Shown here in pieces: positions 13,426-32,862 of a stretch of 34,480 nucleotides of DNA. Under the pieces are notes generated by a model, which made no database searches, was not told where the DNA came from, and saw only the letters and a list, made by a program, of their open reading frames with translations. Location of the stretch: the sequence record SRR31156797_495, one strand, 5' to 3'. Both the position numbers and the translations under genes were made by a program. Positions within the stretch are counted from its first letter, which is position 1. Each line of letters starts with the position of its first letter.

Positions 13426-13971
13426 GTGTCCACAAGACCCTCCCAATATCAATGGAATAAACTAAAGACGTCATGCAAAAAAATTTCTGCGTTATTGATA
13501 ACAGGGGTGAATTTCAGTCTATGCGCGTTTTTTTTATTAGGTTGTTCCAGTCATTCGTCAGGATTTCTATTTGTACAACAGGATATAACTGTAACCGTAC
13601 ATATCGCTCCTAACGCCAACAACAGTAATGCCATAGCTGTAGATATCCTCATGCCGTTAACGGATGAAACAGAAGCCGCTGTGACCTCACTGACTGCACG
13701 GCAATGGTTTTCCGAAAAAGCTCAATTCGAACGGGATTATACGCCCGGACAAGATTTCTGGGTACTGCACTATGAATATGTGCCGGGAACCAAAGTTCCT
13801 CCAATCTCAATTTCTTTGAAGGACCAAACCAAATCAATCATCGTCTTCGCAGACTACCAAACTAAGGGCGTACATCGTTTTCGCACCACACGGGGCGATA
13901 ATCTGATTCTCACACTGGGCGAATCAGATTTTTCCGTGGTTGATTCCAATTTCAACTCTTCAGGATCTTAG
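13426..13971 (+). CDS. tssJ: T6SS outer-membrane lipoprotein TssJ-like
   Basis: Lipobox FLLGC, ANNSNAIAVD and IVFADY...GVHR motifs; first gene before tssK. The start codon is uncertain. Confidence 0.75.
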   Translation: MSTRPSQYQWNKLKTSCKKISALLITGVNFSLCAFFLLGCSSHSSGFLFVQQDITVTVHIAPNANNSNAIAVDILMPLTDETEAAVTSLTARQWFSEKAQFERDYTPGQDFWVLHYEYVPGTKVPPISISLKDQTKSIIVFADYQTKGVHRFRTTRGDNLILTLGESDFSVVDSNFNSSGS

Positions 13972-13972
13972 A

Positions 13973-15376
13973 ATGAGTGACACCGATAAAACTCCTGATG
14001 CTGTCCTTTGGCACGAAGGCATGCTGCTGATGCCACAACATTTTCAGGCGGCAGATCAATATCATGAAGCCATGTTGAATTACAGAATGAGAAGCTTCAA
14101 CCCATTTAGCTGGGGAATACATAATATTGAGATAGATCAGAGCCTTATGCTTCAAGGAATCTTCCGAATTCTAAATTTGAGTGCAGTCATGCCGGATGGC
14201 CAGATAGTCAATTTCAACCGCCAAAATAGCGAGGACATGGAATTGGAGACCAATTTTGATACGACTGTTGCTGCACAACCGGGAGGCTTGAGTCTATGGC
14301 TGACCATACCACGACACGCAGACGGAATACTCGTTGATGACGAGACAGCACGTTATCACAGCCGTGAAACAAGGATCAGGGATATTACTACCGGTGAAGA
14401 AATTCCTGTTCCAGGATTAATGCCGAACATGGCACTATGGGCAGGGGATATCCCCCCTTCACGATTCTCATCCCTGCCATTGGCTCATATAAAGGCAAAA
14501 GGCGCAAAGTGTCTGCTAACGAACTACGTACCTCCGCTAATGGTCGTCCGGGATGACACAAAACTGTACTCGCTATGCCGAACATTAGCGGAGAAAATAC
14601 GAAGCAAGGCCTCAATGCTGGCGGAAAGGATTTCCTCACTGAGTGCAAATGAAACGGCTCTGTTGCTGGAAACACGCTTTCACATGTCAGGTCTTCTTGC
14701 CGGACTTTCGGCATTTGAAGCTCTACTTCATTCCAAAGCAGCCCATCCGCTAACGCTCTTCACCGCAATGCACAATCTTGCAGGAGGTGCGGCAAGCATA
14801 GGTGGAACTTATCTCCCGCCAAGGGTGGACTATGAACATGCCGACCCCATGCGCTGTTTCAGAAAACTGATCTCATTTATCTGTCGCATGATCGAGGCCG
14901 GTGTTCCCGAAATATATAAAACTCATACTTTCGAGCAGGCAGACTCTGTATTCACTCTTGAACTCAGGAACCTTCCCCATGGTGAAGAGGATTATATCAT
15001 TGGCGTAGCCTCTGAGCAGGATGACGATCCACGGAAAATAAAAGCATGGATGGATCGGGCTGTCATCGGCATGGACAAGACTCTGGACAAGCTTATGAAA
15101 CAGCGATCCACCGGGGCCAAACGCAAGCTGTTGGACCGTATCCCCGGAATGGTGACTCCAAGCAAAGTACTCCTGTATGAAATCAGTGCTGCTTCAACTG
15201 ACTCCATTTCCAAAGAACTATTTATCGCAGGTGTTGCTGAGGGAACTGAAACACAGCGCCCTTCCTCCATATGTCTATTCTCCAGAATCAAAGGATATGA
15301 CACAGCATTGGACCCTGATATTTTCTCCGGGAATTCGTTTACAGCAGATCCGGAAAAGCCAAAGGGAGGAAAGTGA
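13973..15376 (+). CDS. tssK: T6SS baseplate subunit TssK
   Basis: VLWHEGMLLMPQHFQ, WG, AVMPDG and YVPP motifs. Start placed at ATG 13973. Confidence 0.93.
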   Translation: MSDTDKTPDAVLWHEGMLLMPQHFQAADQYHEAMLNYRMRSFNPFSWGIHNIEIDQSLMLQGIFRILNLSAVMPDGQIVNFNRQNSEDMELETNFDTTVAAQPGGLSLWLTIPRHADGILVDDETARYHSRETRIRDITTGEEIPVPGLMPNMALWAGDIPPSRFSSLPLAHIKAKGAKCLLTNYVPPLMVVRDDTKLYSLCRTLAEKIRSKASMLAERISSLSANETALLLETRFHMSGLLAGLSAFEALLHSKAAHPLTLFTAMHNLAGGAASIGGTYLPPRVDYEHADPMRCFRKLISFICRMIEAGVPEIYKTHTFEQADSVFTLELRNLPHGEEDYIIGVASEQDDDPRKIKAWMDRAVIGMDKTLDKLMKQRSTGAKRKLLDRIPGMVTPSKVLLYEISAASTDSISKELFIAGVAEGTETQRPSSICLFSRIKGYDTALDPDIFSGNSFTADPEKPKGGK

Positions 15377-16104
15377 TGCACCAGACACTGCCCTTGGCAC
15401 GTATTGCCGGAAGCGATCGTCGGCAGCTTCTAACAACTCGACAGTTCAGAGAATTTAATGAGCTGCTTTTCAAAACTCTGAATGCTGCATTCTCGGAACA
15501 GAGTGCTGAAACCGAGCCTCCGGAACAGATGCAGGGGGAACTCCTGCAACTGCTGCTGAGTCAACTGAAAAAGCTTCCTTCGGGCAGTTCCACAGACGCA
15601 CAGCTCGTCATGGTCGGTCTTGCTGATGAACTGTTCCTCTCCGGAGACTGGTATGGACAACAATGGTGGAACTCAAATCCACTTGAATACAATCTCTTTG
15701 GGACCAGATCCGCCGGTGACACATTATATACTATTGCCGACCGCATAATCAGCCAGCGTTCACAGAACAACGTAGCTCTAGCTGCAATACTGCTTGATGC
15801 CTTCGCTATGGGATTCACAGGAAAATATGCTGATTCGGCAGACAGCACACTGGCGGTATACCGCACTGGTTTGCGTGAATCGATCATGCATGGTCACACG
15901 AGTGAGGACCTTTCCGGAAACAGACTTTGTCCGGATGCATATAATCGAACCTTTATCCCTTCCAGTGACCGCAGCCTTCCGTCTCTTAGACGCTGGATGC
16001 TTGCTGCAAGCATTTCCGGATTAATTCTGCTGGTCATTTCTCATCTGGTTTGGTGGTCCGCGACATCTCCACTACGGGAAATCCTCAAGCAGTTAACTGT
16101 GTAA
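15373..16104 (+). CDS. tssL: T6SS TssL/DotU (no OmpA domain)
   Basis: LADE...W...PLEYNLFGTRSAGD, GFTGKY and a single C-terminal TM helix. Confidence 0.92.
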   Translation: MMHQTLPLARIAGSDRRQLLTTRQFREFNELLFKTLNAAFSEQSAETEPPEQMQGELLQLLLSQLKKLPSGSSTDAQLVMVGLADELFLSGDWYGQQWWNSNPLEYNLFGTRSAGDTLYTIADRIISQRSQNNVALAAILLDAFAMGFTGKYADSADSTLAVYRTGLRESIMHGHTSEDLSGNRLCPDAYNRTFIPSSDRSLPSLRRWMLAASISGLILLVISHLVWWSATSPLREILKQLTV

Positions 16105-16112
16105 GGTCCCTC

Positions 16113-19100
16113 ATGTCAGCACTACCCTCCTTTATGGATTTAATCCGCCACTACCTGCCATTGCTACTCAGCATAGCGGCACTGAGCACACTGCTGTTTG
16201 CAGTGCTGACTACAATCATGGTGTTACGTATCCGCGAATCTACAGAGAACTCTGCTCCCCAGAAGGGTGAAAGTGAAACCGCCCCCGATGAGAATTCCGT
16301 TACTCCTGAAAAAAAGGCACGACGCACTCTCCAAAAACAGATGAGCGCCATAGTCAAATCCATTGGATTATGGAGATTACGAGATGTTCCATGGTGCCTG
16401 GTTCTTGGGGATTCGAGGGAAGGCGGCAAGACTATTTTCGCTGACGCCGGCGCTCAGAAGTTCGAAGGAAGCCTGCTGAACTGGTTTCAGTTTCACCAGG
16501 GAGTAACACTGGTTCCGTCCGGGAATCTGGGTGAAATAGGAAAATCTCATTCCAGACACAATTTTACATTGCTTCTGAAATTGATGCTGCGTCATAAGCC
16601 GCGCAGGCCCCTTGACGGATTGATCATCACTATATCTGCAAGGGAGCTGATCTCACCGGAATCTTCTGAAACACTCGGAGAATCCGTGCATGCCCAATTA
16701 GCCCACCTGCAAGATACGCTGGGAATGCGGCCCCCCGTTTATCTGCTGGTCACAGATTGCGAGTTCTTTGAAGGATTTTCAGAGATCTGCAATTCTCTTT
16801 CCCCTGAGCAACTTCATCAGATGCTGGGCTGGTCGAGTCCATATGTCCCTGATATCACATGGTCTTCCAAGTGGATGCAGGAAGCAGAAACAAGCATATT
16901 GGGCGCCTTGGAAGACCTACGAAGTGACATTTTTTCCAAGACTGTGCCTTCCCGGAATGCCAAACACATTTTCGCTCTCAGCTCTTGTATAAAGAACATC
17001 TTCACACCATTGCAGCACTTTGCAAATGAGCTCTTCCGTCACAGCGTATATCACGAACCTTTCCTGTTCCGAGGAATCTGGTTTTGCGGCAATCCTGCGG
17101 GGAGAGAAAAGCACGGTTCGGTATTTATCAGGGATCTTATCTCACAAAAAATTTTCCCGGAACATGCCTGCTCCGTTCCGGTTAGCCGGGTAATGACCAG
17201 ACGGACGGCCTTGGCACGAACGATTCAAGCTATAGCCACAGTCATTCTTTGCAGCTGGGCCGTTTTGATCTGGCATGGAGGAAATGTTTTACGCCAGGAA
17301 GTTCCCACAGTGCTGCCAGTGGTCAGAACCTACATCACCATGAGAAATACAGCCGGTATTTCACGGTGGCCGGAAGGAGTTCAGATCCAGCAAGATCGTC
17401 TGGAAAAAATGGCCACAAGAGTTCCCCGCATTCAAAAGGCATTTGATAACAACGCCAGAACTCTGCTTCTGGATATGGAAAAGGCTAAACAGGAGTGGAT
17501 TACTTCCGTTGTCTTTCCAACAAGTTTCGTGACTGGGTTGGAATCGCGGATAGACAGATCCTACCAACGGGCTTTCAACGAAATAATTCTAAAGGGAACA
17601 ACTCTGGGGCTGATTTATAAGGGAGCTACAATTTACGAAAAGCCATCAGCGGTTCAAAAGGGGCAAGTCGAGCCTTTGACTCAAATGCCAGCATACAGGG
17701 ATTTAAAACAACACATAGCTGATTCAGCGACTTTCCAATTACGATGCGAACAGTTTAACAGCCTCAAAAAAACACATAATGTAGAGACCTTAAAGGATGT
17801 AATAAACTACGTCTTTGATCTCGATTTTCAAAGGACTTTCATTCAGGAAAAGCGACTGGAAGAGATTATGTCAAAAAGCACTTACCAACCTGTCAATATG
17901 TCCTATTATCATAAACCAGCTAAAAGAGCATTTGATAGCAGAATGTCACAACTTTATGCACAGCTGTTTGACGACAATCCGCTTTTACATGCTGTGAATG
18001 AACTTGTCGTAGCACTTAATGATCTCACCCAGAATGGAGGCTCATATCGCCCCGGAAACGAAGAGGTCAGGGTGGAGGATGATATTGAGGCTGTACGTGT
18101 GCTTTTGAACAATCCTGAACAGAACTGGCCCACGAAAACTAATTTACCGATCAACTGGCCTATGGAAACGCTTTTCGCTAAGGCTGAATCAGAGACCCCG
18201 CTGCGTGCTTTTAATGTCAGTAGCTGGCGTAAAGAAGGTAAGGATAGACACAGAACCCTATACAGAAAACTGACAAAAAAGAATTCGCCAATTACAGGAA
18301 CTATTCTGGTTTCAGATTCATCCGGTCTCAACCTGAGACCTATGGTGCTTTTGCTGCAACAGTCAATCTCAGACCTCCAAAAGCAGGCATTCATGCACAA
18401 GGCCAAGGATGTCCACCTTTCCCAAAAGACTCCTCCTGCCACCTATCTTGCCTGGGATATCAGGCTCCTTGAACAAGCAGTGGATCTTGCATCTCCTTTT
18501 GACACATATTTCAGTAATGAAATGGAAGAATTTCCTAGTTCATTCCGTAGTACTGTAAAAAAACAGGGAGAGCAGCATCTTGCCGATAACATTGCGGCTT
18601 TAGTGGCTCAGGCTCAAAAGTTTATAGCTGTTCCCAGCCTGGAATATCTGAGATTGCAACAAAACGACGGCTCCGGTGCGACTAATTTCAACCAGGCTGG
18701 CCCCCTGCTGCTGCGCATTCTCGACATATACAATCAATTGGGAAAACAGAACGAACGATCCAGACTGGCCACAGTGGTTGACAGACAGGCTATGGATTTA
18801 CTGCGCCGAAGCAACGAGGAGCTTACCAAGAGCAACTTATATTCCCCCAGAGACCAGTCACTTGATAAATGGAATGGAAAAACTCCTGCCTCGACAGCTC
18901 TCTTCGGACTGCAAAGCAAAAATGAACTGGTTCCCTACCTTTCGTCTCAACGTGACCGACTGCGTCTGATAATCAACACTTGGGCTGAACCTGCACTGGC
19001 ATATGCCTACATGCGTGATAATTTTACCCAAAATGACTATTCTCTACTTTCTCATTGGGAAACAATTCTTGAAGACCTTGATCAATATGATTCGCATGTC

Positions 19101-20087
19101 CCCGGCAATCCTCTCAGTCTGCTTGAGCAATACATATTGCATGGACTGGACAAACCAGACTCCGTTGTTCCTGTATCCGGAGACAGCTGGTTCCAGAAAA
19201 AAGCCTTTGTAATGTATAAAGCCGTTCATAATCGTTTGAACTGGCTGGCTTTGCAAGATTTTTCCAACAAATGGAATCAGGCTGCAGATTACTTTACCCG
19301 AAGACTAGCCGATCATTTCCCATTCTCATCTCCCTTAAAAATCGGACAAAACGCATCTCCGGACAAAATCAGGACATTTCTATCCATGTTACCGGAATAC
19401 ACTGCTGGCAAACTGCCGAGTGACATACAGATCTTTCTCAATAGTATGAATGAAATGCGATCTCTGGTCGGAGAAACTATACAAAATGCCACTCTGAATC
19501 AGCCCGCCTTTGCAGTCGGAGTAACATTTCATGAGCCACGCTCCGGCGAAATAAATACAGAACAGCTAATCGACCAGAAACTGCAGCTCGGACAAACTCT
19601 CCTTTCATGGCGTAACGGTCAGCGAACCGGTCTTTGGAGCTACGGCGATCCTGTCTCCTATACCCTTCAATGGGCCAAGGACGGAGCACGCATTCCTATT
19701 GAAGGAAAGGACGAATCCGGTTCTACCGCTTCTAAGAATGAAGTTATTTACAAATATGATTCTCCATGGGCTCTTTTGGCCTTTATGCAGACCAACCGGT
19801 TTAATGATGAGTTCCTTGTGGAAGGCTCTTTTCCCGAACCGGGAACCATGATGTTTGAAGTCCAGACAGTGCTTAAAGAATCGGAAAAAGAAGGAAAAGG
19901 CCCTGTCAGGATGCCGGTTGAGAGTAAATCATCCGGACAGGTCAGATCTTTTATACGAATAACATTACGTAAAGTCGGACAAACCGGAAAAGCACCGGAA
20001 GAGCAGATCACATTGCCGGACGAATTTCCGCATGAAATGCCGAAATTCGATCCCTATTCAGTCTGGCTGAACTCAAAACAATATTAA
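16113..20087 (+). CDS. tssM: T6SS membrane subunit TssM/IcmF
   Basis: PWCLVLG, RRPLDGLII, PVYLLVT, GF and FRGIWFCG motifs, TM segments, and FPF and PWAL in the C-terminal part. Start placed at ATG 16113. Confidence 0.9.
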   Translation: MSALPSFMDLIRHYLPLLLSIAALSTLLFAVLTTIMVLRIRESTENSAPQKGESETAPDENSVTPEKKARRTLQKQMSAIVKSIGLWRLRDVPWCLVLGDSREGGKTIFADAGAQKFEGSLLNWFQFHQGVTLVPSGNLGEIGKSHSRHNFTLLLKLMLRHKPRRPLDGLIITISARELISPESSETLGESVHAQLAHLQDTLGMRPPVYLLVTDCEFFEGFSEICNSLSPEQLHQMLGWSSPYVPDITWSSKWMQEAETSILGALEDLRSDIFSKTVPSRNAKHIFALSSCIKNIFTPLQHFANELFRHSVYHEPFLFRGIWFCGNPAGREKHGSVFIRDLISQKIFPEHACSVPVSRVMTRRTALARTIQAIATVILCSWAVLIWHGGNVLRQEVPTVLPVVRTYITMRNTAGISRWPEGVQIQQDRLEKMATRVPRIQKAFDNNARTLLLDMEKAKQEWITSVVFPTSFVTGLESRIDRSYQRAFNEIILKGTTLGLIYKGATIYEKPSAVQKGQVEPLTQMPAYRDLKQHIADSATFQLRCEQFNSLKKTHNVETLKDVINYVFDLDFQRTFIQEKRLEEIMSKSTYQPVNMSYYHKPAKRAFDSRMSQLYAQLFDDNPLLHAVNELVVALNDLTQNGGSYRPGNEEVRVEDDIEAVRVLLNNPEQNWPTKTNLPINWPMETLFAKAESETPLRAFNVSSWRKEGKDRHRTLYRKLTKKNSPITGTILVSDSSGLNLRPMVLLLQQSISDLQKQAFMHKAKDVHLSQKTPPATYLAWDIRLLEQAVDLASPFDTYFSNEMEEFPSSFRSTVKKQGEQHLADNIAALVAQAQKFIAVPSLEYLRLQQNDGSGATNFNQAGPLLLRILDIYNQLGKQNERSRLATVVDRQAMDLLRRSNEELTKSNLYSPRDQSLDKWNGKTPASTALFGLQSKNELVPYLSSQRDRLRLIINTWAEPALAYAYMRDNFTQNDYSLLSHWETILEDLDQYDSHVPGNPLSLLEQYILHGLDKPDSVVPVSGDSWFQKKAFVMYKAVHNRLNWLALQDFSNKWNQAADYFTRRLADHFPFSSPLKIGQNASPDKIRTFLSMLPEYTAGKLPSDIQIFLNSMNEMRSLVGETIQNATLNQPAFAVGVTFHEPRSGEINTEQLIDQKLQLGQTLLSWRNGQRTGLWSYGDPVSYTLQWAKDGARIPIEGKDESGSTASKNEVIYKYDSPWALLAFMQTNRFNDEFLVEGSFPEPGTMMFEVQTVLKESEKEGKGPVRMPVESKSSGQVRSFIRITLRKVGQTGKAPEEQITLPDEFPHEMPKFDPYSVWLNSKQY

Positions 20088-20105
20088 AACAGAGGCTAGA
20101 TCCAT

Positions 20106-21197
20106 ATGGAACACCATGCATTCATATCGTCAGAAAGTACTGAGGCTGTAATTGATGTGCCGTCGCTTCTGACACCACTGTCAAAAGGATCTCCCTGCGG
20201 TGACGACCTTATTTATTCGGAAACTTATGACGCCATCAAGGAAGCCCGCAGGCAGGAAGACGCCAATTTACCGCGGGGAGTCTGGGACCGGGAACTCAAA
20301 CGGGCTGACTGGTCAAAAGTCATACAACTTTGCGAAGAGGCTCTCGCAACCTCAAGCAAGGATTTGCAGATTGCTGCGTGGCTTACAGAGGCTTTGCTGT
20401 GCCTTCATGGTCCCAGAGGACTGCACGAAGGACTGATTCTGATGCTGGAAATGACCAGAACGTTCTGGGATGAAGTTAAACCACTTCCTGAAGGGGATAT
20501 GGACAAACGTACCGCACCATATCGCTGGATAAATACGAAACTTGCTGAACGAGTGAAGTTCATCGCCATTACGGAACCGGACACGAATCAGGGCCGTGCG
20601 TATACATATGCAGACTGGGCGGAAGCAGAATATATTGAGCATCTTGGCGTGAGGGACAAGAAAATTATTGCGCAGGCAGAAAAAGAAGGAAAGGCCAGCC
20701 GGGAAGTCATCAATCAGGTCGCCGCGGCTTCTTCTGACTCATTTTACAGTTCCCTGACCAATGAAATTGCCGCGTGCCTAGAAGTAATCATGGGACTTGA
20801 GGATCTGTTGGACACGCTATGCGAAAAGGACTCTCCCGGCTTCGGAGCTTTAAGAGAGATATTGCAGTCAGTCCTAAACCGTACGTTGACCTGGAACAGG
20901 ATGAATAGCAGTACAGCAGCCACAGAGAACACTACTAAAGACAATGCAGTTATGAAGCAGGATGACGATTCAGAACCGATTATCAGAAGCCGACAGGAAG
21001 CCTATGCCATGTTGAACAAAGCAGCCGATTTTCTCCTAGCAACGGAACCGCATAGTCCTACTCCGTATTTGGTTAAACGCGCTGTTTCCTGGGGACAAAT
21101 GCCATTGGCAGACTTGCTGGGTGAACTTGTAGGAGAAGCTCACTCTGTAAATGATATTCTATCCTTACTTGGTATTCCCGGTAGCGATAGTCATTAA
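20106..21197 (+). CDS. tssA: T6SS TssA (ImpA N-terminal domain)
   Basis: YDAIKEARR, ADW, SKDLQIAAWLTEA and C-terminal EPHSPTPYLVKRAVSWG. Confidence 0.95.
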   Translation: MEHHAFISSESTEAVIDVPSLLTPLSKGSPCGDDLIYSETYDAIKEARRQEDANLPRGVWDRELKRADWSKVIQLCEEALATSSKDLQIAAWLTEALLCLHGPRGLHEGLILMLEMTRTFWDEVKPLPEGDMDKRTAPYRWINTKLAERVKFIAITEPDTNQGRAYTYADWAEAEYIEHLGVRDKKIIAQAEKEGKASREVINQVAAASSDSFYSSLTNEIAACLEVIMGLEDLLDTLCEKDSPGFGALREILQSVLNRTLTWNRMNSSTAATENTTKDNAVMKQDDDSEPIIRSRQEAYAMLNKAADFLLATEPHSPTPYLVKRAVSWGQMPLADLLGELVGEAHSVNDILSLLGIPGSDSH

Positions 21198-21262
21198 TCG
21201 TTGTACCAAGTCCACGGGCGTTTCATCGCCCTGAGGAGCAACCTTCAAAAGGAGAATTACAC

Positions 21263-21913
21263 ATGTCCGAAAGCACGCAAAAACTGTTGGGACGAATCAG
21301 ACCCCCAAGGGTCCAGATCACCTACGATGTGGAAGTCGGTGATGCAATTATCATGAAGCAATTGCCATTTGTTGTAGGAATCATGGCGGACCTATCAGGC
21401 AAACGAGAAAAAGACCTACCTCCGCTCAAAGAGCGTAAGTTCGTTTTTGTTGATCGTGACAACGTGGATAAGGTTTTGGCAGCAGCAGCTCCACGCATAG
21501 CCTTTCAGGTTCCAAACCAACTTAATGACGATCCCGAAAAACTGAATGTGGAACTGAAATTCAAAACAATGGATGATTTTATGCCAGCTAAGGTTGCCAA
21601 ACAAGTCCCGGATCTCAAGGATCTGCTTGAAACCAGACAGAAGCTTGTTGACCTGCTTGGGAAAATTGATGGCAACGACACTCTTGACCAGTTGATTCAG
21701 AGTTTCATTCACAATGATGAAGCACTAAATGATTTGGTTACGCAAGCGACGACTGGAATTAACGAAATTAAAGCTGAAGAAGCCAAGAAAGATGCGGAGA
21801 GTTTGGATGAAGTTGAACCCTCTCCTGAACCTTCTCCCGAAGCAGAATCCCCTAAACCAGACCAAAAGAAAAAGGCAGCCAAGGCAGAAAAACCAAAACC
21901 CGAAGAGGGATAA
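21263..21913 (+). CDS. tssB: T6SS sheath small subunit TssB with low-complexity C-terminal extension
   Basis: RIRPPRVQITYDVE, LPFVVGIMADLSG, ERKFV. Confidence 0.97.
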   Translation: MSESTQKLLGRIRPPRVQITYDVEVGDAIIMKQLPFVVGIMADLSGKREKDLPPLKERKFVFVDRDNVDKVLAAAAPRIAFQVPNQLNDDPEKLNVELKFKTMDDFMPAKVAKQVPDLKDLLETRQKLVDLLGKIDGNDTLDQLIQSFIHNDEALNDLVTQATTGINEIKAEEAKKDAESLDEVEPSPEPSPEAESPKPDQKKKAAKAEKPKPEEG

Positions 21914-21939
21914 CAATTCTGATCAAATAGGAGTCCAAT

Positions 21940-23385: not shown

Positions 23386-23415
23386 CTTTAACCAGAGAAG
23401 ATAAAGGAACAGCTC

Positions 23416-23898
23416 ATGCAAAATATGTTTATAAAGATAAAAGATATTAATGGGGAGTCTACTGTCAAAGGGTACGAGAAACAGATAGAAATATACTCAT
23501 TCTCTCACGGATTTTCCCAACCAACCTCTCCACTTCGAAGTTCCGAAGGGGGCGGAACAACTTCACGCGCTCACCACTCTGATTTCTCATTCTCAAAACG
23601 GTTTGACATTTCGTCGCCGTCCCTCTGCAAAGCCCTATGGAACGGCACAACGATATCTGAAATAACTTTCACCGCATGCCGTGTAGATGGAAGTGATGTC
23701 GTGGCCTACATGGTCTTAACCATGAACGATGTAATCATTTCCAACTATAGCGTTAGTGGAGGTGGAGACTTGCCCGTTGAAACGGTTTCACTGAACTACG
23801 GAAAAATCAAATACGAATACAAGCAACAGAAACAGGCAGGTGGAGCCAGCGGAACTGCAGCAGCAACCCACTCCCTTGAAACCAATGAAATCTCGTAG
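23416..23898 (+). CDS. hcp: T6SS tube protein Hcp (TssD)
   Basis: INGES, IEIYSFSHG, KRFDISSP, PVETVSLNYGKI. Confidence 0.96.
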   Translation: MQNMFIKIKDINGESTVKGYEKQIEIYSFSHGFSQPTSPLRSSEGGGTTSRAHHSDFSFSKRFDISSPSLCKALWNGTTISEITFTACRVDGSDVVAYMVLTMNDVIISNYSVSGGGDLPVETVSLNYGKIKYEYKQQKQAGGASGTAAATHSLETNEIS

Positions 23899-23904
23899 TC
23901 AGCT

Positions 23905-24507
23905 ATGAAACATGAACAGAAGTCATACCTAGTCCCTCTTCTGAACCGGCTCGTTGATGAAACCCCTCTTGCAGGGGCCGAGCCGGTTCCCAAGAGGACT
24001 TGCAACCTAAATGACTACCAACAGTCAGTTTTGCAGGACGTATTTGCCCTGTTGAACACCAGAGTCTCCAGAGCCGGTTGGTTGGAAGGAAATTCTGCAC
24101 CGACAGTATTGGATTACGGCCTGCCGGATCTAGGCGAAAAAAGGGTTGAATCTCAAATTGATGCTGAGCATTTGGCTAAATTGGTGAGCCAAGCTATCCG
24201 GGCCTTTGAACCCCGACTCGAAAATGTACAGGTAATTCCAGTACCTCTGACTGAACTTCAGCACAAATTTTCCTCAAGCAACCGATCTAGCCAGAAAGTG
24301 CAACACTCCTCCAATATCATGCTCGGCACGGTCTCCCCCACCGATTTTGCCGGACAGGAAACCGCCAGACAGCACTTCCGCCTCGGCCTGCATATAGAAG
24401 CCGGATTAAAGGGGGCTTCCGGGGACATATCTTTATCCTTTCCAATTATTTTCGACTCACAGGGAACTGCATTTTGCGAAGAGGAGAAATGCGATGGCAA
24501 GTCATGA
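23905..24507 (+). CDS. tssE: T6SS baseplate subunit TssE (gp25-like)
   Basis: LLNTR, VLDYGLPD, AIRAFEPRL. Confidence 0.92.
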   Translation: MKHEQKSYLVPLLNRLVDETPLAGAEPVPKRTCNLNDYQQSVLQDVFALLNTRVSRAGWLEGNSAPTVLDYGLPDLGEKRVESQIDAEHLAKLVSQAIRAFEPRLENVQVIPVPLTELQHKFSSSNRSSQKVQHSSNIMLGTVSPTDFAGQETARQHFRLGLHIEAGLKGASGDISLSFPIIFDSQGTAFCEEEKCDGKS

Positions 24508-26317
24508 CAGGGACTCCATGACCCGCGATTACTATCAAAGTGAACTTGCGTACCTTCGCAAGGCAGGTGTTGAATTTGCCAAACAATACCCCCGTATTGC
24601 GGACAGGCTGGAACTGGGGCCGGACATTACACCAGATCCGTTCACGGAACGGCTAATCGAATCCTTCGCATGGCTCACGGCACGTATACGCCGGAACATT
24701 GATGCGGAAATACCGCAGGTTTCAGCTTCCTTGCTGGGGACGCTCTATCCGAACTTCACCAGCCCGGTTCCTTCTATGAGTATAGCGGAATTTCCACCTG
24801 ATAAAGATAAAGGTGATTTACGAACCGGGTATACAATCCCTGCAGGAACCCAACTTCACTGCTCTGCACAGAAAAAAGACATTACCCTACGCTGGACCAC
24901 CGCATGGCCGGTAACCATTCATCCTGTTTCCATTGTTGAAGCCACCTTTGAACCCAGATCGCTATACCAGCTCAAAGATAAAGCGACTCAAGCCTCCACC
25001 ATTTTGAGGCTGCGACTTCAAGGACAAGGAGTTCCCCTTACAGCCTGTACACTGAACAGTTTGCGGCTTTTTCTACATGGAGATCGTTTTGACACCTTTC
25101 CTTTGTATGAAACTCTAGTCACCGGAGCACTTGATATTTGTCTGCGTGACCCTAAGGACAGCCCAGACAAATCTCCTATTTCCCTTGGATTTAACGCACT
25201 TCAGCCAGTAGGTTTTAACCCAAAAGAACTCATACTCCCTCAAGGATGTTACTCCCATCCCGCCTACCAACTGGTTCAGGAATACTTCGCTTTCCCTGAA
25301 AAGTTTTTATTTCTGGACATTGCAGGCCTTGAAAAACGGCAGGAAAATGCAAAGGAATTGGATATCCTAATTCCATTGTCACAAGTACCTGCACGGCAAT
25401 CAATGATTACTAAGACCATGTTCCGCACAGGGGCTGTTCCTGTGGTAAACTTGTTTAAAAAAATTTCCGAACCAATTCGACAGGATGAAACTCAAAATGA
25501 GTATCGTCTTATTGCTGATGCAAGGCGAAATATCTCAACCGAAATCCATTCAATAGAATCCGTCAGTGCAGTGGAACCGGGGAAGACAGAAACTCTACGT
25601 ATAGAACCCTATTATTCCCTAACACACCATATGGCATCAGATCGCACACGACTATTCTGGCTGATGCGACGAGCCTGTGCTTCAGCCGGAACTCTCGGAA
25701 CAGATGTTTACCTTTCTTTCGCTGACCTAGACTTCAATCCCATGCACGCCCCCGCACGTACTATATTTGCGCGTCTTCTGTGCACTAACCGCCATTTAGC
25801 CTCAGCAGCACAGGCGGGAACCATGTTGGAACGAGATGCAAATATGCCCGTGGGAAAAATACGCCTACTGATCAACCCCACCCAACAACGCTCTCCGGCA
25901 ATGGAAGGAGAGGTTATGTGGCGGCTCATCTCACACCTAAGCCTGAACCATCTTTCACTGGATGGTCCGCAGGCCACGGATGCCCTGAGAGAAATCCTAA
26001 GACTTTATACCGATGACACCGACACCCCGTCACAAAGTCAAATACAAGGGCTAACAAACATACAATGCAGACCAATAGCCAGAAGAATGGGAAAAAAGGC
26101 ATGGAGAGGATTTGTCCGTGGGACACTTATAGAACTGACTTTGGATAAAAACAGTTTCACAGGTGGCAGTAGTTTTATCTTCGCCTCAGTTCTGAACAGT
26201 TTCTTCAGTCTTTATACAAACATAAACACTTTTACCCAGTTAAAACTTAAATATGTCGGAGAAAAAGGAGCATCATACCAATGGGCACCAATGACAGGCT
26301 GTCAACCCGTCCTTTAA
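24494..26317 (+). CDS. tssF: T6SS baseplate subunit TssF
   Basis: YYQSELAYLR, DPFTERLIESFA, QEYFAFPEKFLF, WRLISHLSLNHLSL. Confidence 0.97.
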   Translation: MASHDRDSMTRDYYQSELAYLRKAGVEFAKQYPRIADRLELGPDITPDPFTERLIESFAWLTARIRRNIDAEIPQVSASLLGTLYPNFTSPVPSMSIAEFPPDKDKGDLRTGYTIPAGTQLHCSAQKKDITLRWTTAWPVTIHPVSIVEATFEPRSLYQLKDKATQASTILRLRLQGQGVPLTACTLNSLRLFLHGDRFDTFPLYETLVTGALDICLRDPKDSPDKSPISLGFNALQPVGFNPKELILPQGCYSHPAYQLVQEYFAFPEKFLFLDIAGLEKRQENAKELDILIPLSQVPARQSMITKTMFRTGAVPVVNLFKKISEPIRQDETQNEYRLIADARRNISTEIHSIESVSAVEPGKTETLRIEPYYSLTHHMASDRTRLFWLMRRACASAGTLGTDVYLSFADLDFNPMHAPARTIFARLLCTNRHLASAAQAGTMLERDANMPVGKIRLLINPTQQRSPAMEGEVMWRLISHLSLNHLSLDGPQATDALREILRLYTDDTDTPSQSQIQGLTNIQCRPIARRMGKKAWRGFVRGTLIELTLDKNSFTGGSSFIFASVLNSFFSLYTNINTFTQLKLKYVGEKGASYQWAPMTGCQPVL

Positions 26318-27252: not shown

Positions 27253-27301
27253 GTATCTTCATCAATGATCAAATAGGCTATCAATATTACAGGAGAAAAT
27301 A

Positions 27302-27817
27302 ATGCCAATATTTATTGAAGGTCACGGCACATATAAAACCGAAGATGGAACCTTTGTTGTGCCAGATAGAGTTACGATCAAGTTTTATATTCCACATGAG
27401 AGTGAACTATCTGCAACAGCAGGAAGATACTCCCCAACAACAGAAGAATGCATAAGTCAGTCGTTATGTTATAATTATAAAATATGGCCATTGTACGGAC
27501 TACAACTACACCATAAAGATACTGAATGCAAAAGATATGGCATAGATGAACTTCCAGACACAATTCCAACTGGAGATTTAGCAATAATTAATGCGTTTAA
27601 AAACACTGGAATAAGACTATCTTGCATAGTAGATAAATTAAGGTCAAAATATACTAATCAAGATATTGAAATACGGTGGTTAGCCTGCAGAGAAAAAGTT
27701 GCACCAGAAAGCACTGTCGTATTTTCAATATCTACGCAGTCTTTTGACCCTCCAGAATACAGCAACACCATACAAAAAATCGTAGAAATGCAGGATTACA
27801 ACGGAGCAGAAATTTAA
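27302..27817 (+). CDS. AT-rich hypothetical protein resembling the 'putative adhesin Stv' domain; candidate T6SS cargo
   Basis: RBS AGGAG. Pattern GHG...VP...IKFY...NY...LS...WLACR matches my recollection of Stv-like domains; not verified. Confidence 0.55.
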   Translation: MPIFIEGHGTYKTEDGTFVVPDRVTIKFYIPHESELSATAGRYSPTTEECISQSLCYNYKIWPLYGLQLHHKDTECKRYGIDELPDTIPTGDLAIINAFKNTGIRLSCIVDKLRSKYTNQDIEIRWLACREKVAPESTVVFSISTQSFDPPEYSNTIQKIVEMQDYNGAEI

Positions 27818-27859
27818 TACATAAACAAATCCAAAACTAAAGCAGGTTGTCATCACATT

Positions 27860-28300
27860 ATGCCAGATAAAATACGCAGGACATATACTAAATATTCACA
27901 GGATGGCTACTATTCATACATGCATATAGAATGTACAAAATACACTGATGGTAATCAAAGGATAAAATTTCACGTATCCATAAATCGAATGAAGAAAAAA
28001 GGAGAGCTTAAAGATATTCATGTAACAGCCGAAATTTATCAAATAAATACAAGGTCTCAGGTGACACGCTTTGCAAATATCAAGCTTGGCAAAGTATGGT
28101 TTACTAAAGGCCCTCAAGGTGCTGTGTGGACTTTCTCTAAAAATGGAATAAAGAGTGGCCCGCATAGCAAAATTTACACTGACCCTGCAGCAAATATTAA
28201 TGTTGGAACTCAAAACATAATTGCAAAAACGTCTCCCCAGCTTTATGATTTTTATATAAACATCAAGTTAAAGTCTTATACTTGGTTAGATCTAAATTAA
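27860..28300 (+). CDS. AT-rich, Lys-rich hypothetical protein
   Basis: 146-aa ORF co-oriented inside the T6SS cluster; no family recognised. Confidence 0.65.
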   Translation: MPDKIRRTYTKYSQDGYYSYMHIECTKYTDGNQRIKFHVSINRMKKKGELKDIHVTAEIYQINTRSQVTRFANIKLGKVWFTKGPQGAVWTFSKNGIKSGPHSKIYTDPAANINVGTQNIIAKTSPQLYDFYINIKLKSYTWLDLN

Positions 28301-28377
28301 AACTAGATAAAATGAAGCAAAAGAACTGTTATAAACATTCATAAATCAATCTATTAAACTAATTTTTTAAATTTCCC

Positions 28378-30303
28378 ATGAACAACATCACCACCCTAAC
28401 CACCCCTCTAGGCAAAGATAAACTAACCCTAGACTCCATAACCGGGCAGGAATCACTGTCCGAGCCTTTTTCCTATTCCATCTCCGCACACAGCAAAGAT
28501 AACGCACTGGACTTCAAATCAATAGTAGGCAAGGACGTTTCAGTAGCCATTCAACTGCCGGATGGAAAGTCAAACAGATATATCAACGGGGTGGTGACCC
28601 GCTTCACCATGGGCCTCAGCACAGTGGAAGCCACTCAGTACGCACTTGAACTGCGCCCATGGCTGTGGCTGATGAACCTGCAGGCTGATTGCGCTGTTTT
28701 TCAAAACATGAGTGTGCCGGACATAGTGAAAAAGGTCTGCAATGCTGCCGGATACACAGACATAAGTGATAAGCTCAGCGGCAGTTATGCCCAGCGGGAA
28801 TATACCGTTCAATATAATGAAACCGCCTTTGCCTTTGTCTCCCGTTTGATGGAAGAAGAAGGCATTTTTTATTTTTTCACCCATACTTCAAGTGCGCATA
28901 CCATGGTTCTGGCGGACGGCCCGGACAATTTCACCGACTGCGAACAGGCGTCTTCACTGACATTTCATGCTAAAAACTCCAGCAATATTCCCGCCAAACA
29001 AATTACTGATGTTTCGCTTTCCCAGATTTCCATTACCGGAAAATACGGTACCGGGGATTATAATTTTGAAACCCCGGATACCGACCTGACTGCTACTGCT
29101 GCCGGAACAAACAACCGCATGGTTTACGAATATCCTGCCGGATATATGGTTAAGAGCGACGGGGAAAGCATTGCCGGCAGAAGACTTGATGCGCTGGAAG
29201 CAGACGAAAAGATTCTTTCCGCTTCTTCCCCGGCATCCGGGCTGTGCACCGGAGGGACCTTTACCGTAGCTAAGCATGACCGCCGCGATATTAATTCCAA
29301 GTGGGCAGTTACGGCATTATCTGTCTCAGCCTCTCCCGAGCATTGCAGATACGGGGTTACCGCTATTCCCGCCAATACAAAATTTCGCCCGGCCCGCACT
29401 TTTGCCAAGCCGCAAGTTCCGGGACCGCTCACCGCAGTTGTTACAGGCAAGGCCGGAGAGGAAATATGGACCGACAAATACGGACGCATCAAGGTGCAGT
29501 TCTTCTGGGACAGGCCGGGTAAAAAAGATGAGAATTCATCATGCTGGGTGCGTGTGTCCCAACCGTGGGCCGGAAAGGCTTATGGGGCGCTTTTTCTGCC
29601 GCGCATAGGCCATGAGGTGGTTGTCAGCTTCATTAACGGTGATCCCGACAAACCTCTTGTTACCGGAGCAGTATATAATGCAAACCAGACCGTTCCCTAC
29701 CCCCTGCCGGACAATGCCACCCGGACAGTAATCAAGACAAATTCCAGTAAGAACGCTCAAGGTTCCAACGAGCTGCGTTTTGAAGATAAGGCGGGAGAGG
29801 AAGAGCTGTTCATGCATGCGCAAAAGGACATGAATGCAACGGTTGAAAACGCCCGCACCACGATCATAAAAAAAGCCAATGACACCCTGACTCTGGAGGA
29901 AGGCAACCGTTCCCTTGATGTCCAGAAAGGGACTGAGACCCACCATGTAAAAGGTACACGCAATGTTACGGTAGAAGATGCCGAAACCCGCACCAACAAA
30001 TCTGATTACACCGCTACCGTTGATGGCGATTACAACCTCACAGTCAAGGGAGCTATGACCATCAAGGTAACAGGTGATATCACCATCGCCTCAGACGGAA
30101 ACGTTACCATAAAGGCGGGTCAAAATATAACCGTGAAAGGCGGTCAAAACCTGAAAACTGAAGCAGGCATGAGCGCGACGCATAAGGCTTCAACATCCAT
30201 AACCGTACAGGGTCTTAGCTTTTCAGTTAAGGGAAATGCTTCAGGTGAAGTCAATGGAGGAGGTTCGTTGAGCGTCAAAGGCGGCATGGTCAGCATCAAT
30301 TAA
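28378..30303 (+). CDS. vgrG: T6SS spike protein VgrG (no effector extension)
   Basis: QYNETAFAFVSRLMEEEGIFYFF, GRIKVQFFWDR, SSCWVRVSQPWAG, LPRIGHEVVVSFINGDPDKP, NELRFED and beta-helix repeats to the end. Confidence 0.98.
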   Translation: MNNITTLTTPLGKDKLTLDSITGQESLSEPFSYSISAHSKDNALDFKSIVGKDVSVAIQLPDGKSNRYINGVVTRFTMGLSTVEATQYALELRPWLWLMNLQADCAVFQNMSVPDIVKKVCNAAGYTDISDKLSGSYAQREYTVQYNETAFAFVSRLMEEEGIFYFFTHTSSAHTMVLADGPDNFTDCEQASSLTFHAKNSSNIPAKQITDVSLSQISITGKYGTGDYNFETPDTDLTATAAGTNNRMVYEYPAGYMVKSDGESIAGRRLDALEADEKILSASSPASGLCTGGTFTVAKHDRRDINSKWAVTALSVSASPEHCRYGVTAIPANTKFRPARTFAKPQVPGPLTAVVTGKAGEEIWTDKYGRIKVQFFWDRPGKKDENSSCWVRVSQPWAGKAYGALFLPRIGHEVVVSFINGDPDKPLVTGAVYNANQTVPYPLPDNATRTVIKTNSSKNAQGSNELRFEDKAGEEELFMHAQKDMNATVENARTTIIKKANDTLTLEEGNRSLDVQKGTETHHVKGTRNVTVEDAETRTNKSDYTATVDGDYNLTVKGAMTIKVTGDITIASDGNVTIKAGQNITVKGGQNLKTEAGMSATHKASTSITVQGLSFSVKGNASGEVNGGGSLSVKGGMVSIN

Positions 30304-30313
30304 GGGATACAGT

Positions 30314-30970
30314 ATGGGTAAAGCAGAAGAATACATACAGCGTGATGAACATGGAAACATTTTGTTCAGCGTGCCTTTGCAGGATGGAAAACCGCATGGC
30401 ACTGCGAATATGTTTACCCCCGATGGGTCCGTACTGCAGCAGATGGAATATCAACATGGAATAATTGTAGGAGAAGTGCGGCGTTACGATAAGGACGGAC
30501 AGCTTGAACAGGTATCAATGATACACAAGGGGAAACTTCACGGAGAACTTCGCACCTTTGAACATGAGCGTCCGCGCACGCTTATGACTTACGTAAACGG
30601 CGTGGCCAACGGCCCCATGCAGGTCTGGCATCCTAATGGACAATTGGCAGCCGAGACAACTCTTCTACATGGAAAGACGGAAGGGGAATCCCGTGTATTC
30701 GGAGAAAATGGAGAGCTCATGCAGCGCCTTAACTACCGTAATGGAGTACTGCATGGAGAGGCTGAACATTTTTTTCCCTCTGGTACTGTACGGGAAAAAA
30801 CGCATTGGGTGGATGGCCTTAAACATGGTGATTCTTCCACCTTTTCAGAATCTGGAGATCTGGAAAGACAGGTGCAGTACGAGAAAGGTAATCTGTTGGC
30901 GCAGAAGATTGCTGACGAATCCTCGGCCAAGAAGAAATCCTGGCGGCAGGCAATTTTCGGAGGCAGGTAG
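30314..30970 (+). CDS. MORN-variant repeat protein (YwqK-like)
   Basis: Tandem ~24-aa repeats such as NYRNGVLHGEAEHFFPSG and HWVDGLKHGDSSTFSESG. Confidence 0.88.
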   Translation: MGKAEEYIQRDEHGNILFSVPLQDGKPHGTANMFTPDGSVLQQMEYQHGIIVGEVRRYDKDGQLEQVSMIHKGKLHGELRTFEHERPRTLMTYVNGVANGPMQVWHPNGQLAAETTLLHGKTEGESRVFGENGELMQRLNYRNGVLHGEAEHFFPSGTVREKTHWVDGLKHGDSSTFSESGDLERQVQYEKGNLLAQKIADESSAKKKSWRQAIFGGR

Positions 30971-30972
30971 TC

Positions 30973-31359
30973 ATGTCTCAGTTGGTTGTTTCCGGAGCCA
31001 TGCTCCAGTGTTCATTCGGTGTAGCACCATGCTCTCTGATGGTTTTGCCCCAAAACAGGGTTATGTGTTCCACTCCGGCAGCTAATATCATGGATTATAT
31101 TCCCATGGTGAATGTGCCGGGGTTTGGTATGTGTACATCAATAGCAAACCCAACAGTTGCCTCTGCAACAGCAGCAGCCTTGGGCGTACTTACACCGATG
31201 CCCTGTATTCCCTGTCTCGTGGCCCCGTGGATTACCGGTTCTCCTACAGTTTTACTCGGCAACATGCCTGCTCTGAATAGCAGCTCAACCCTTATGTGCA
31301 TGTGGGCCGGCAGTATTTCAATCACCAGCCCCGGACAGTTTACTACAACAATCCCATAG
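30973..31359 (+). CDS. DUF4280 PAAR-like spike tip protein
   Basis: GAMLQCSFG, FGMC, PMPCIP...PW and LMCMWAGSISI Cys pattern. Confidence 0.93.
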   Translation: MSQLVVSGAMLQCSFGVAPCSLMVLPQNRVMCSTPAANIMDYIPMVNVPGFGMCTSIANPTVASATAAALGVLTPMPCIPCLVAPWITGSPTVLLGNMPALNSSSTLMCMWAGSISITSPGQFTTTIP

Positions 31360-31368
31360 GGGAATATT

Positions 31369-32178
31369 ATGGTTAAGACCAAAACAAAAGTTTTTCTCGG
31401 CCTCTCCATAACCGGACTGATTACATCTTTAGTTATAACAATACTATTAGCCGGACTGCTCGTATCTGAAAATAAAGATGTACAGTCGACCACGCATCAG
31501 GTGAAGGGAGACATCACGCCCCCACGGCAACCCTCCGGGAACTCCACTGCATTGCCTGTTGCCTCCAATCCGGTAAAGAAAGCAGGGAACAGCACCACTG
31601 TGACCAACAGCACTTCTGTAAAGAACACCAACACTTTTACCTTGCAGGTTGGATCATATCTCAGCCTGAATTCCGCAAAAACAGAGGCAGCACGTGTTGC
31701 CGGACTAGGGTTTAAGGCTGAAATATATGTTCAGGAAAAATCACCTCCAGTATATGTTGTACGGACCGGAAATTTTACCGACATGACCGCAGCTAACGCC
31801 GAAGCAAAACTGATTCAACAGCAGAGCAGCATAACTGCCTCAATTGTGCCTATGGATAAAGCAACTCCTGTTTCGGAAAAAGCAGGAATTCCTCTTTGGC
31901 TGGCACAGGTCGGATCGTTTTTAACTCAGCAGTCCGCGAAAACCGAGATATCCCGGCTGAAAAAAATGGAAATCAAAGCAAGCGTTGTCCCGCTTTACGA
32001 TAAGAAAAACAGGCTCTGGTATGCTGTTCTTCTTGGGGCTTTTCCGGATGAAGCCAAAGCAAAATCTACCTGCGTTGCATTTAAAGAAAAGGTGAATGGG
32101 GATTGTATTGTCTATCCTATTGATAAAAAAATATTTGAGGCTCGGAAGGCACGGGGTAAAGATTCTAGAAAAAAATAA
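31369..32178 (+). CDS. Membrane-anchored protein with two SPOR peptidoglycan-binding domains
   Basis: N-terminal TM helix, Ser/Thr/Pro linker, then FTLQVGSY...YVVRTGNF and WLAQVGSF...YAVLLGAF SPOR repeats. Confidence 0.88.
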   Translation: MVKTKTKVFLGLSITGLITSLVITILLAGLLVSENKDVQSTTHQVKGDITPPRQPSGNSTALPVASNPVKKAGNSTTVTNSTSVKNTNTFTLQVGSYLSLNSAKTEAARVAGLGFKAEIYVQEKSPPVYVVRTGNFTDMTAANAEAKLIQQQSSITASIVPMDKATPVSEKAGIPLWLAQVGSFLTQQSAKTEISRLKKMEIKASVVPLYDKKNRLWYAVLLGAFPDEAKAKSTCVAFKEKVNGDCIVYPIDKKIFEARKARGKDSRKK

Positions 32179-32393
32179 AAACACTTTTTATAACACAATT
32201 TACGGTAGTCTACCCATTTGCAAGGAGGGCTGAAAAGTAGAGGCTATTTGTAGACCTCCCCAAATTAGTACCATCCGTAAGTAGAATTTTCTTGGGGATA
32301 ACGTCAGGAAAAACATCAACTTGTCTATAATATTACAGAACAAAAAGTCTAAAAGTGTTACGGAAAATCTAAGCCATCGCTATTAGACATATT

Positions 32394-32700: not shown

Positions 32701-32790
32701 ATATGCCCACCTGCGTGATGATGCCATGCAGCGGGCCAGCGAGGTTGCTGGAGATATGTATAAGGCAATGCAGATAAAACGCACCTCGAC

Positions 32791-32862
32791 TTGACCTATT
32801 AAATATTAATGCCTACTATTTTAGTCATAGAGCAATCTAAAGACTATTTTACTAGGCATTAA
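32791..32862 (+). promoter_or_regulatory. Sigma70 promoter with two tandem palindromic operators for the hipBA-like operon
   Basis: TTGACC (32791-32796), 17-bp spacer, TACTAT (32814-32819). Operators ATGCCTA-N6-TAGTCAT (32809-32828) and AAGACTA-N6-TAGGCAT (32840-32859). Confidence 0.75.

What the first reader, a model, noticed from the sequence alone, without database searches (positions are those of the whole stretch)
13426..32178. Apparently intact T6SS with 12 core genes plus a PAAR-like gene but no tssH/clpV
Seen: tssJ, K, L, M, A, B, C, hcp, E, F, G, vgrG and DUF4280 all have open frames, and no AAA+ ATPase gene lies between the integrase relics. Known: ClpV recycles contracted sheaths and commonly follows tssEFG; some systems lack it (Francisella uses ClpB; Campylobacter clusters have no tssH). 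Inference: a ClpV-independent or ClpB-recycled variant in a sulfate-reducer lineage, with further odd features (TssB tail, SPOR anchor, no evolved VgrG, no recognisable toxin). This is the best candidate for an undescribed system here.
Basis: partly seen in the sequence, partly recalled or inferred. Interest (0 to 1): 0.72.

Follow-up and report, generated by a model that had tools for sequence, protein, structure and literature searches.

The report
ClpV-less type VI cluster, clipped baseplate
This is a bacterial 'harpoon' (type VI secretion) gene cluster of a known family with no gene for its usual recycling motor ClpV on this contig, likely a lineage-wide loss that a general chaperone would cover, but one baseplate gene is cut short here, so this copy may not fire.

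Summary
The gene list is right: tssJKLMABC-hcp-EFG, vgrG and DUF4280 are open and no ClpV trace lies on this 34.5-kb contig. The cluster is of the P. aeruginosa H3-T6SS kind; its closest named relatives are in Maridesulfovibrio (TssC 86%, VgrG 89%). The MORN (TseF-like), SPOR and TssB-tail 'oddities' recur in relatives. 'Intact' and 'no toxin' are doubtful. An AT-rich cassette with a Stv toxin-like domain fills the clpV slot, and TssG stops about 20 residues early, inside foot 2 (65 of 65 relatives run on). No genome is held, so genome-wide absence of clpV is untested. Of 10 related clusters with an empty slot, 5 genomes have no ClpV, 4 have it elsewhere and 1 is unclear. A ClpV of unknown owner is in the source run. 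Accession spacing suggests the slot is also empty in Desulfovibrio sp. UCD-KL4C. Four Magnetospirillum-family genomes form a separate, conserved ClpV-less branch. ClpV-less T6SSs are already published (Campylobacter, Azoarcus, Francisella). Three look-ups found no earlier scan note on this system. Verdict: a modest variant of a known machine.

The parts
12592..13176 (+). left tyrosine-integrase relic (two fragments)
   Evidence: phrog_1 on 12931-13176
13426..13971 (+). tssJ lipoprotein (by position and similarity)
   Evidence: no family hit; 25-37% to positional homologues, 67% to L101; dN/dS 0.24 against L101
13940..15376 (+). tssK
   Evidence: TIGR03353 over cut-off; 66-76% to the closest relatives
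15373..16104 (+). tssL, short form without a peptidoglycan-binding domain
   Evidence: PF09850 only
16050..20087 (+). tssM, family-typical length
   Evidence: PF14331; lengths in relatives
20106..21197 (+). tssA
   Evidence: TIGR03363 over cut-off
21263..21913 (+). tssB with a longer version of the family's low-complexity tail
   Evidence: TIGR03358; tails in relatives; 24 extra residues
21940..23385 (+). tssC; short N-terminus shared with the Desulfovibrionaceae relatives, ClpV-docking helix position still present but divergent
23416..23898 (+). hcp
   Evidence: PF05638
23905..24507 (+). tssE with a 38-residue insertion
24494..26317 (+). tssF
   Evidence: TIGR03359
26281..27252 (+). tssG, ending about 20 residues early, inside foot 2
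27302..27817 (+). Stv-domain gene (putative His-Cys toxin or protease domain) in the clpV slot; GC 0.36, GC3 0.26
   Evidence: PF21527 over cut-off; GHG at residue 7 and WLAC at 126; composition
27860..28300 (+). 146-aa orphan gene, GC 0.34; possible partner or immunity protein (inference)
   Evidence: no family; 2 weak repeat-like hits among 1.84 billion proteins
28378..30303 (+). vgrG without a C-terminal extension; no Shine-Dalgarno piece upstream
   Evidence: TIGR03361; 89-90% to the closest relatives
30314..30970 (+). MORN-repeat protein, TseF-like
   Evidence: PF07661; 38% over 132 aa to the 178-aa H3-T6SS gene after vgrG3
30973..31359 (+). DUF4280 PAAR-like spike tip
   Evidence: PF14107 and weak IglG hit
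31369..32178 (+). membrane-anchored double-SPOR protein, likely the peptidoglycan anchor
   Evidence: PF05036 twice; SPOR gene in 3 of 6 related loci tested
32373..32794 (+). right tyrosine-integrase relic, frameshifted

Best explanation
This is an H3-T6SS-family type VI secretion cluster, likely from a Maridesulfovibrio-like sulfate reducer, with no clpV on the contig; the gene was likely lost from the lineage, so contracted sheaths would be cleared by housekeeping ClpB or left after single shots. Steps. (1) Shown: family membership and the empty clpV slot. (2) Inferred: the loss predates this strain, since the slot looks empty in UCD-KL4C while Desulfobaculum senezii keeps one gene there. 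(3) Inferred: the cluster stayed under purifying selection, so it worked without a dedicated ATPase, firing Hcp-VgrG-DUF4280 with a TseF-like MORN cargo and anchored through the SPOR protein. (4) Shown: in this strain an AT-rich two-gene cassette with a Stv toxin-like domain sits between tssG and vgrG, TssG is about 20 residues short and vgrG has no Shine-Dalgarno piece. (5) Inferred: the insertion caused the clipping, and this copy is about as likely to be weakened or newly disabled as to be active.
For: No ClpV trace. UCD-KL4C accessions TssK WP_291328910, TssC ...920 and VgrG ...930 fit steps of two with no number left between tssG and vgrG. D. senezii TssC GAB6178178 and VgrG GAB6178172 leave room for exactly one gene. 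In 5 relatives (G001, G002, G008, G263, L140) a clpV that is not behind tssG heads a clpV-vgrG-MORN module; the window keeps that module in place without clpV. Four of 4 genomes of G003's family with this TssC type have no ClpV over cut-off, only ClpB and a ClpA-sized match, with dN/dS of 0.06-0.15 for tssB, tssC and hcp. They form a branch separate from the window's (both 100% SH-aLRT, quick tree). Window tssJ, K and L against L101 give dN/dS 0.11-0.24; VgrG and TssK show no rate excess. TssC residues 1-70 have drifted from the family consensus more than in M. zosterae (13:2, p 0.007) or UCD-KL4C (15:3). Published precedent for function without ClpV: C. jejuni (PMC3667781) and Francisella ClpB (PMC5481754), passages read.
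Against: The genome was not available. Four of 10 related clusters with an empty slot have ClpV elsewhere; in G005 it lies upstream of tssK without vgrG beside it, and in G329 its neighbours were not read. The source run holds a 275x contig (window: 232x) with three collinear matches of ClpV type. The accession argument is indirect: tssG itself was not looked up, and the D. senezii gene is unidentified. The TssC drift is not significant with D. senezii as outgroup (10:6, 13:6), the region was chosen after seeing the alignment, and the docking-helix position itself is no more changed than in the sister proteins. dN/dS is pairwise and covers 3 genes. No test here bears on ClpB use. A short TssG could be normal for Maridesulfovibrio, since no TssG from that genus was seen.
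Confidence: 0.5

Rival explanations
1. Split system: a cognate clpV lies on another contig of the same genome, and recycling is ordinary.
For: G001 has one tssC and one ClpV about 180 kb apart, G002 has them on different contigs, and G329 has them more than 110 kb apart. G005 and G008 have clpV upstream of the cluster. A ClpV-type contig at 275x is in the run. The TssC docking-helix position is kept.
Against: Where its neighbours were read, detached clpV usually travels with vgrG-MORN (5 loci; G005 is the exception), and that module is still in the window's cluster. None of the 6 low-GC ClpV genes in hand (GC 0.38-0.54) reaches the three matches that the 275x contig makes to a GC-0.62 gene, which favours a higher-GC owner than this 46%-GC contig. 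Other T6SS-bearing organisms are in the run (contigs at 47x and 100x link tssC and clpV).
Confidence: 0.32
2. Decaying relic: the cluster is no longer used; loss of clpV and clipping of tssG are steps of decay, and there never was a working ClpV-independent machine in this lineage.
For: TssG ends inside foot 2; deleting foot 2 abolishes EAEC T6SS activity (PMC8406304, passages). vgrG lacks a Shine-Dalgarno piece. There are broken integrases on both sides. Azoarcus T6SS-1, which lacks tssH, was expressed but showed no activity (PMC6423157, passages).
Against: No frameshift or internal stop in the other core genes over 18.7 kb. dN/dS 0.11-0.24. No rate excess in VgrG, TssK or TssC 71-481. Full-length TssK, TssC and VgrG occur in UCD-KL4C, where the slot also looks empty.
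Confidence: 0.16
3. Assembly artefact: clpV was dropped, or the cassette wrongly joined in, during assembly.
For: The only holder is one run, which may be the window's source.
Against: The stretch is one contig at 232x with no variants or joints, and the slot also looks empty in an independent isolate.
Confidence: 0.02

Closest known systems
Pseudomonas aeruginosa H3-T6SS (subtype i4a; the H3 = i4a label is recalled, PMC6300606 shows only that P. aeruginosa has an i4a system)
   Same: TssC 68% identical; short TssL; long TssM; order tssB-C-hcp-E-F-G ... vgrG-MORN(TseF)-DUF4280; variable genes just before vgrG.
   Different: H3 has clpV3 after tssG, divergent tssJKLMA genes, a full-length TssG and no SPOR gene in the annotated stretch. 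TseF works through PQS and vesicles (PMC5379069); nothing here tests that.
Azospirillum argentinense Az39 plasmid T6SS (family listed as mostly i4a in PMC9113992)
   Same: TssC 67%; vgrG-MORN-DUF4280 module.
   Different: Has clpV after tssG.
ClpV-less T6SS-i clusters: Campylobacter jejuni (PMC3667781), Azoarcus olearius T6SS-1 (PMC6423157), some Xanthomonas oryzae (PMC9048695)
   Same: Near-complete core without tssH; ClpB or a ClpV from elsewhere proposed as the stand-in.
   Different: Campylobacteraceae systems are subtype i1 (PMC9113992); the subtypes of the other two were not checked. C. jejuni secretes and lyses cells, Azoarcus T6SS-1 showed no activity. Function here is untested.
Francisella T6SS-ii recycled by ClpB (PMC5481754)
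   Same: The mechanistic model for recycling without ClpV; a DUF4280/IglG-like tip.
   Different: The window's core proteins score far better against the T6SS-i models than against the Francisella ones; it is not T6SS-ii.

Membership tests
T6SS-i | Membrane complex TssJ, L, M | tested here: met
   Pfam hits for L and M; J by position, lipobox and similarity only
T6SS-i | Sheath TssB/C, tube Hcp, cap TssA | tested here: met
   all over NCBIfam cut-offs
T6SS-i | Baseplate TssE, F, G, K complete | tested here: inconclusive
   all over cut-offs, but TssG lacks about 20 conserved C-terminal residues
T6SS-i | Spike VgrG plus PAAR-like tip | tested here: met
   TIGR03361 and PF14107
T6SS-i | ClpV/TssH in the cluster | tested here: not met
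T6SS-i | ClpV/TssH anywhere in the genome | tested here: inconclusive
   no genome; the run-level probe found a ClpV of unknown owner
H3-T6SS-like clade (i4a) | TssC groups with H3-type systems | tested here: met
   best plasmid-collection hits are P. aeruginosa H3 (67.8%) and Azospirillum (66.6%), the next group 59% or less; in the quick tree both lie in the window's broad group, with weak support 84; no named reference set of all subtypes was in the tree
H3-T6SS-like clade (i4a) | vgrG-MORN/TseF-DUF4280 module | tested here: met
H3-T6SS-like clade (i4a) | Contact-independent metal uptake through the TseF-like effector | not testable with these tools
   needs secretion and growth assays
ClpB-recycled T6SS (Francisella mode) | ClpB localises to and disassembles contracted sheaths | not testable with these tools
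   no ClpB of this organism in hand; needs imaging
T6SS-ii (Francisella) | Igl/Pdp-type components | tested here: not met
   IglH and IglG models score 53 and 52 bits, under their cut-offs, against 590 for canonical TssF

The most novel reading that the evidence does not exclude
H3-type type VI systems have shed ClpV several times independently (Maridesulfovibrio, a Magnetospirillum-family branch, perhaps Candidatus Angelobacter) and stay functional because housekeeping ClpB has taken over sheath recycling, with the outer TssC domain drifting to suit it. This would give non-pathogenic models for how a general disaggregase is recruited to a canonical T6SS-i sheath.
Probability: 0.3. Interest if true: 0.6.

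Novelty: new variant of a known kind. Interest (0 to 1): 0.38.

Why it matters
How ClpB recognises a contracted sheath is posed as open in PMC5481754, and ClpV-less T6SS-i clusters have been noted without a shown recycling route (PMC3667781, PMC6423157, PMC9048695). Repeated loss inside one well-studied family allows close ClpV-plus and ClpV-minus pairs to be compared (for example D. senezii against Maridesulfovibrio, if its extra gene is clpV). Searches listed no paper describing this cluster in Desulfovibrionaceae or Magnetospirillum; only listings and abstract starts were seen, ranked 300 of 5,601 papers, and subscription journals are not covered. This particular copy is a poor test object because of its clipped tssG.

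Tried and rejected
Whole-genome search for clpV: no genome held. Two phylum samples around G007 (151 and 251 genomes) reached no close relative (best HydG 54%, best TssK 33%), so no Maridesulfovibrio genome was read. The first metagenome scan found nothing; the second gave only two 3-kb close contigs, L101 and L102. Laying run X1 on a relative's cluster at 80%: the window's contig was recovered on tssB, tssC and vgrG as a control, but the table of pieces was cut, so the owner of the ClpV-type matches could not be told. No RNA holder listed. The single-sequence fold of the Stv-like protein was unusable (pLDDT 34). PF21527 was found in 0 of 201 genomes and 0 of 14 controls and had no plasmid match; both are uninformative. 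Promoter and terminator scans were at or below chance (18 against 28 expected; 24 against 20). The 12-nt repeat shared by the tssB-tssC gap and the tssG-stv gap was judged chance. The gene after vgrG in L216 is not MORN-like, so the module is not universal in the ClpV-less branch. The careful tree did not finish and the quick tree was used. G326 and G327 gave ClpV-family matches cut at contig ends and were not counted either way. G262, G330 and G331 had none over cut-off, but their loci show no tssG, so they were left out of the count of 10. PMC7541819 was read in passages and is not relevant. No complex prediction was run. Supplements were not opened; those of PMC5379069 (distribution of TseF homologues) and PMC8406304 (TssG foot alignments) may bear on the claims.
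Full report
Observation. The window is one whole 34,480-nt contig, and no genome is held for it. Family scans place tssK, L, M, A, B, C, hcp, E, F, G, vgrG and a DUF4280 gene in open frames on the + strand. tssJ is supported by position, a lipobox-like motif and 25-37% identity to positional homologues. Forty-eight ClpV-like proteins taken from related loci find nothing in six frames (best E 0.16). The slot between tssG and vgrG, where clpV usually lies, holds two AT-rich genes (GC 0.36 and 0.34, against 0.43-0.52 for the other cluster genes).

What it is. The closest named proteins come from Maridesulfovibrio zosterae (TssK 68%, TssC 86%, VgrG 89%), Desulfovibrio sp. UCD-KL4C and Desulfobaculum senezii. 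These form one branch (100% SH-aLRT, quick tree of 47 TssC). The host is therefore likely a Maridesulfovibrio-like sulfate reducer. This rests on the T6SS proteins and on the two-subunit periplasmic hydrogenase next door (own knowledge), not on marker genes. The nearest characterised system is P. aeruginosa H3-T6SS: TssC 68% and the same vgrG-MORN-DUF4280 ending. The H3 MORN gene is the 178-aa iron-uptake effector TseF (PMC5379069, passages). The window's protein matches it at 38% over 132 residues; repeats inflate such scores, so position carries part of the argument. A SPOR gene occurs next to the cluster in 3 of 6 related loci tested. Low-complexity TssB tails are common, and the window's is 24 residues longer. 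So the listed oddities are largely family traits.

Is clpV really gone? This could not be tested directly. (a) I ran TIGR03345 on 23 hand-picked genomes behind related loci; 13 had a hit over cut-off. In 10 of them the DNA after tssG is visible and has no clpV. Four have it elsewhere (G001, G002, G005, G329), one has a ClpV that belongs to another T6SS (G004), and five have none (G003, G292, G298, G313, G332). Completeness values are not given for these genomes. (b) In five loci (G001, G002, G008, G263, L140) a clpV that is not behind tssG heads a clpV-vgrG-MORN module; G005 is an exception, and G329 was not read. The window keeps vgrG-MORN-DUF4280 in place without clpV. (c) In UCD-KL4C the accessions of TssK, TssC and VgrG end in 910, 920 and 930, which fits steps of two with tssG directly before vgrG. 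In D. senezii the numbers leave one gene in the slot. This is inference from numbering only. (d) Laying the source run on a relative's cluster recovered the window's contig on tssB, tssC and vgrG, and showed a different contig at 275x with three collinear matches in clpV. The third match is reached only by ClpV genes, not by the 6 ClpB/ClpA genes in hand, and by none of the 6 low-GC ClpV genes. So a ClpV is in the run, more likely from a higher-GC organism, but ownership is open. Overall I put genome-wide absence at 0.55-0.6.

An independent ClpV-less branch. Of 61 genomes of G003's family (G003 is titled Magnetospirillum sp.), 11 had a TssC match and 4 had this type. All 4 lack ClpV over cut-off and have ClpB, frameshifted in the G003 assembly. 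They keep the tssJ-to-tssG order, with dN/dS of 0.06-0.15 for tssB, tssC and hcp in the two pairs computed; other genes are higher, tssJ up to 0.96 with over-called starts. They are a separate branch from the window's. Loss of ClpV with continued selection is thus a real and repeated event in this family.

Is this copy intact? Probably not fully. TssG ends at residue 323, directly before the AT-rich cassette. All 65 distinct related TssG continue 13-49 residues past that column, and among 13 proteins checked it alone lacks a conserved C-terminal block of 20 columns. The model (pLDDT 79) has three strands in the C-terminal domain, and its last residue aligns to residue 321 of EAEC TssG (6N38, Z 11.5, rmsd 8.3, 197 aligned; the last six residues are low-confidence). 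In EAEC the sheet has four strands, the domain runs to residue 365, foot 2 spans 300-330 and its third TssK-binding residue is Met325 (PMC6300606, PMC8406304, passages). Deleting foot 2 abolished activity there. vgrG also lacks a Shine-Dalgarno piece; of 16 starts checked only tssE, which follows hcp by 6 nt, shares this. The simplest account is that the cassette replaced the tssG-vgrG junction. Against wholesale decay: no other break, dN/dS 0.11-0.24 for tssJ, K and L against L101, and no rate excess in VgrG, TssK or most of TssC. TssC residues 1-70, which include the ClpV-docking helix (PMC5048182, passages), have drifted more in the window than in its sisters when scored against the family consensus (13:2 and 15:3), but not significantly with D. 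senezii as outgroup.

Cargo. The first cassette gene passes the cut-off of Pfam Stv, a domain found at the C-terminus of Rhs proteins and proposed to be a His-Cys toxin or protease (bioRxiv 10.1101/2022.08.23.504947, abstract and section 7). It has GHG and WLAC motifs but no delivery domain. The second gene has no convincing relative. A cargo-and-partner pair is an untested inference.

Mechanism. Most likely (0.5): an H3-type machine that lost ClpV at lineage level, fires a plain VgrG-DUF4280 spike with a TseF-like cargo, and has its sheaths cleared by ClpB or left after single shots, as shown for Francisella (PMC5481754) and described for V. cholerae clpV mutants (PMC10433429, passages). No result here separates those two routes. 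Rivals: clpV on another contig (0.32), a decaying relic (0.16), an artefact (0.02).

Novelty. ClpV-less T6SS-i clusters are published for C. jejuni, Azoarcus T6SS-1 and some X. oryzae (PMC3667781, PMC6423157, PMC9048695; passages). PMC8602904, PMC5796746 and PMC9113992 were read in passages for context, and PMC7273116 was seen as a listing only. Searches listed no paper on this cluster in Desulfovibrionaceae or Magnetospirillum. It is a variant of a known kind; interest 0.38.

Noticed in passing
L056, L216, L217, L218 (G003, G298, G313, G292): A Magnetospirillum-family branch with a conserved H3-type T6SS and no ClpV in the genome; a cleaner case than the window.
   Followed up: partly
window 3924-5396 (-): Intact GH14 beta-amylase-family gene with a signal-like N-terminus, unexpected in a sulfate reducer (own knowledge).
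   Followed up: no
window 5909-12396 (-): Periplasmic [FeFe] hydrogenase operon hydAB-TM1266-hydG-ORF-hydE-hydF, with an unassigned 228-aa ORF at 8089-8775 between hydG and hydE.
   Followed up: no
window 5480-5534 and 12652-12706: A 55-nt palindromic repeat (76% identical) lies on both sides of the hydrogenase operon; the second copy is inside the left integrase relic.
   Followed up: no
L029:15494-17989: An 831-aa AAA+ protein in the clpV slot that is only 41% identical to the ClpV queries, while the genome's cut-off-passing ClpV appears to lie elsewhere.
   Followed up: partly
L023, L031, L032 (G262, G330, G331): Three Candidatus Angelobacter assemblies with this T6SS type show no ClpV over cut-off; L031 shows no tssG in the 8 kb from tssF on. 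The assemblies are fragmented.
   Followed up: partly
L056:16167-17102, L218:15445-16518, L001:14945-16216: The tssG-vgrG or tssG-clpV slot holds variable cargo-like genes in relatives (eCIS-core domain, Ntox11), so it is an insertion hot spot.
   Followed up: partly
L188 (NZ_CP137515.1): A record filed as a 91-kb P. aeruginosa plasmid carries the H3-T6SS region with chromosomal-type neighbours; possibly a chromosome piece.
   Followed up: no
L102:1-2787: In a close relative, tssJ is preceded by a DUF2867 gene and no integrase match was seen, so the cluster sits in different places in close relatives.
   Followed up: partly
window 32864-34435 (+): HipB/HipA-type toxin-antitoxin pair, GC 0.53 in hipA, beside the right integrase relic.
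   Followed up: no
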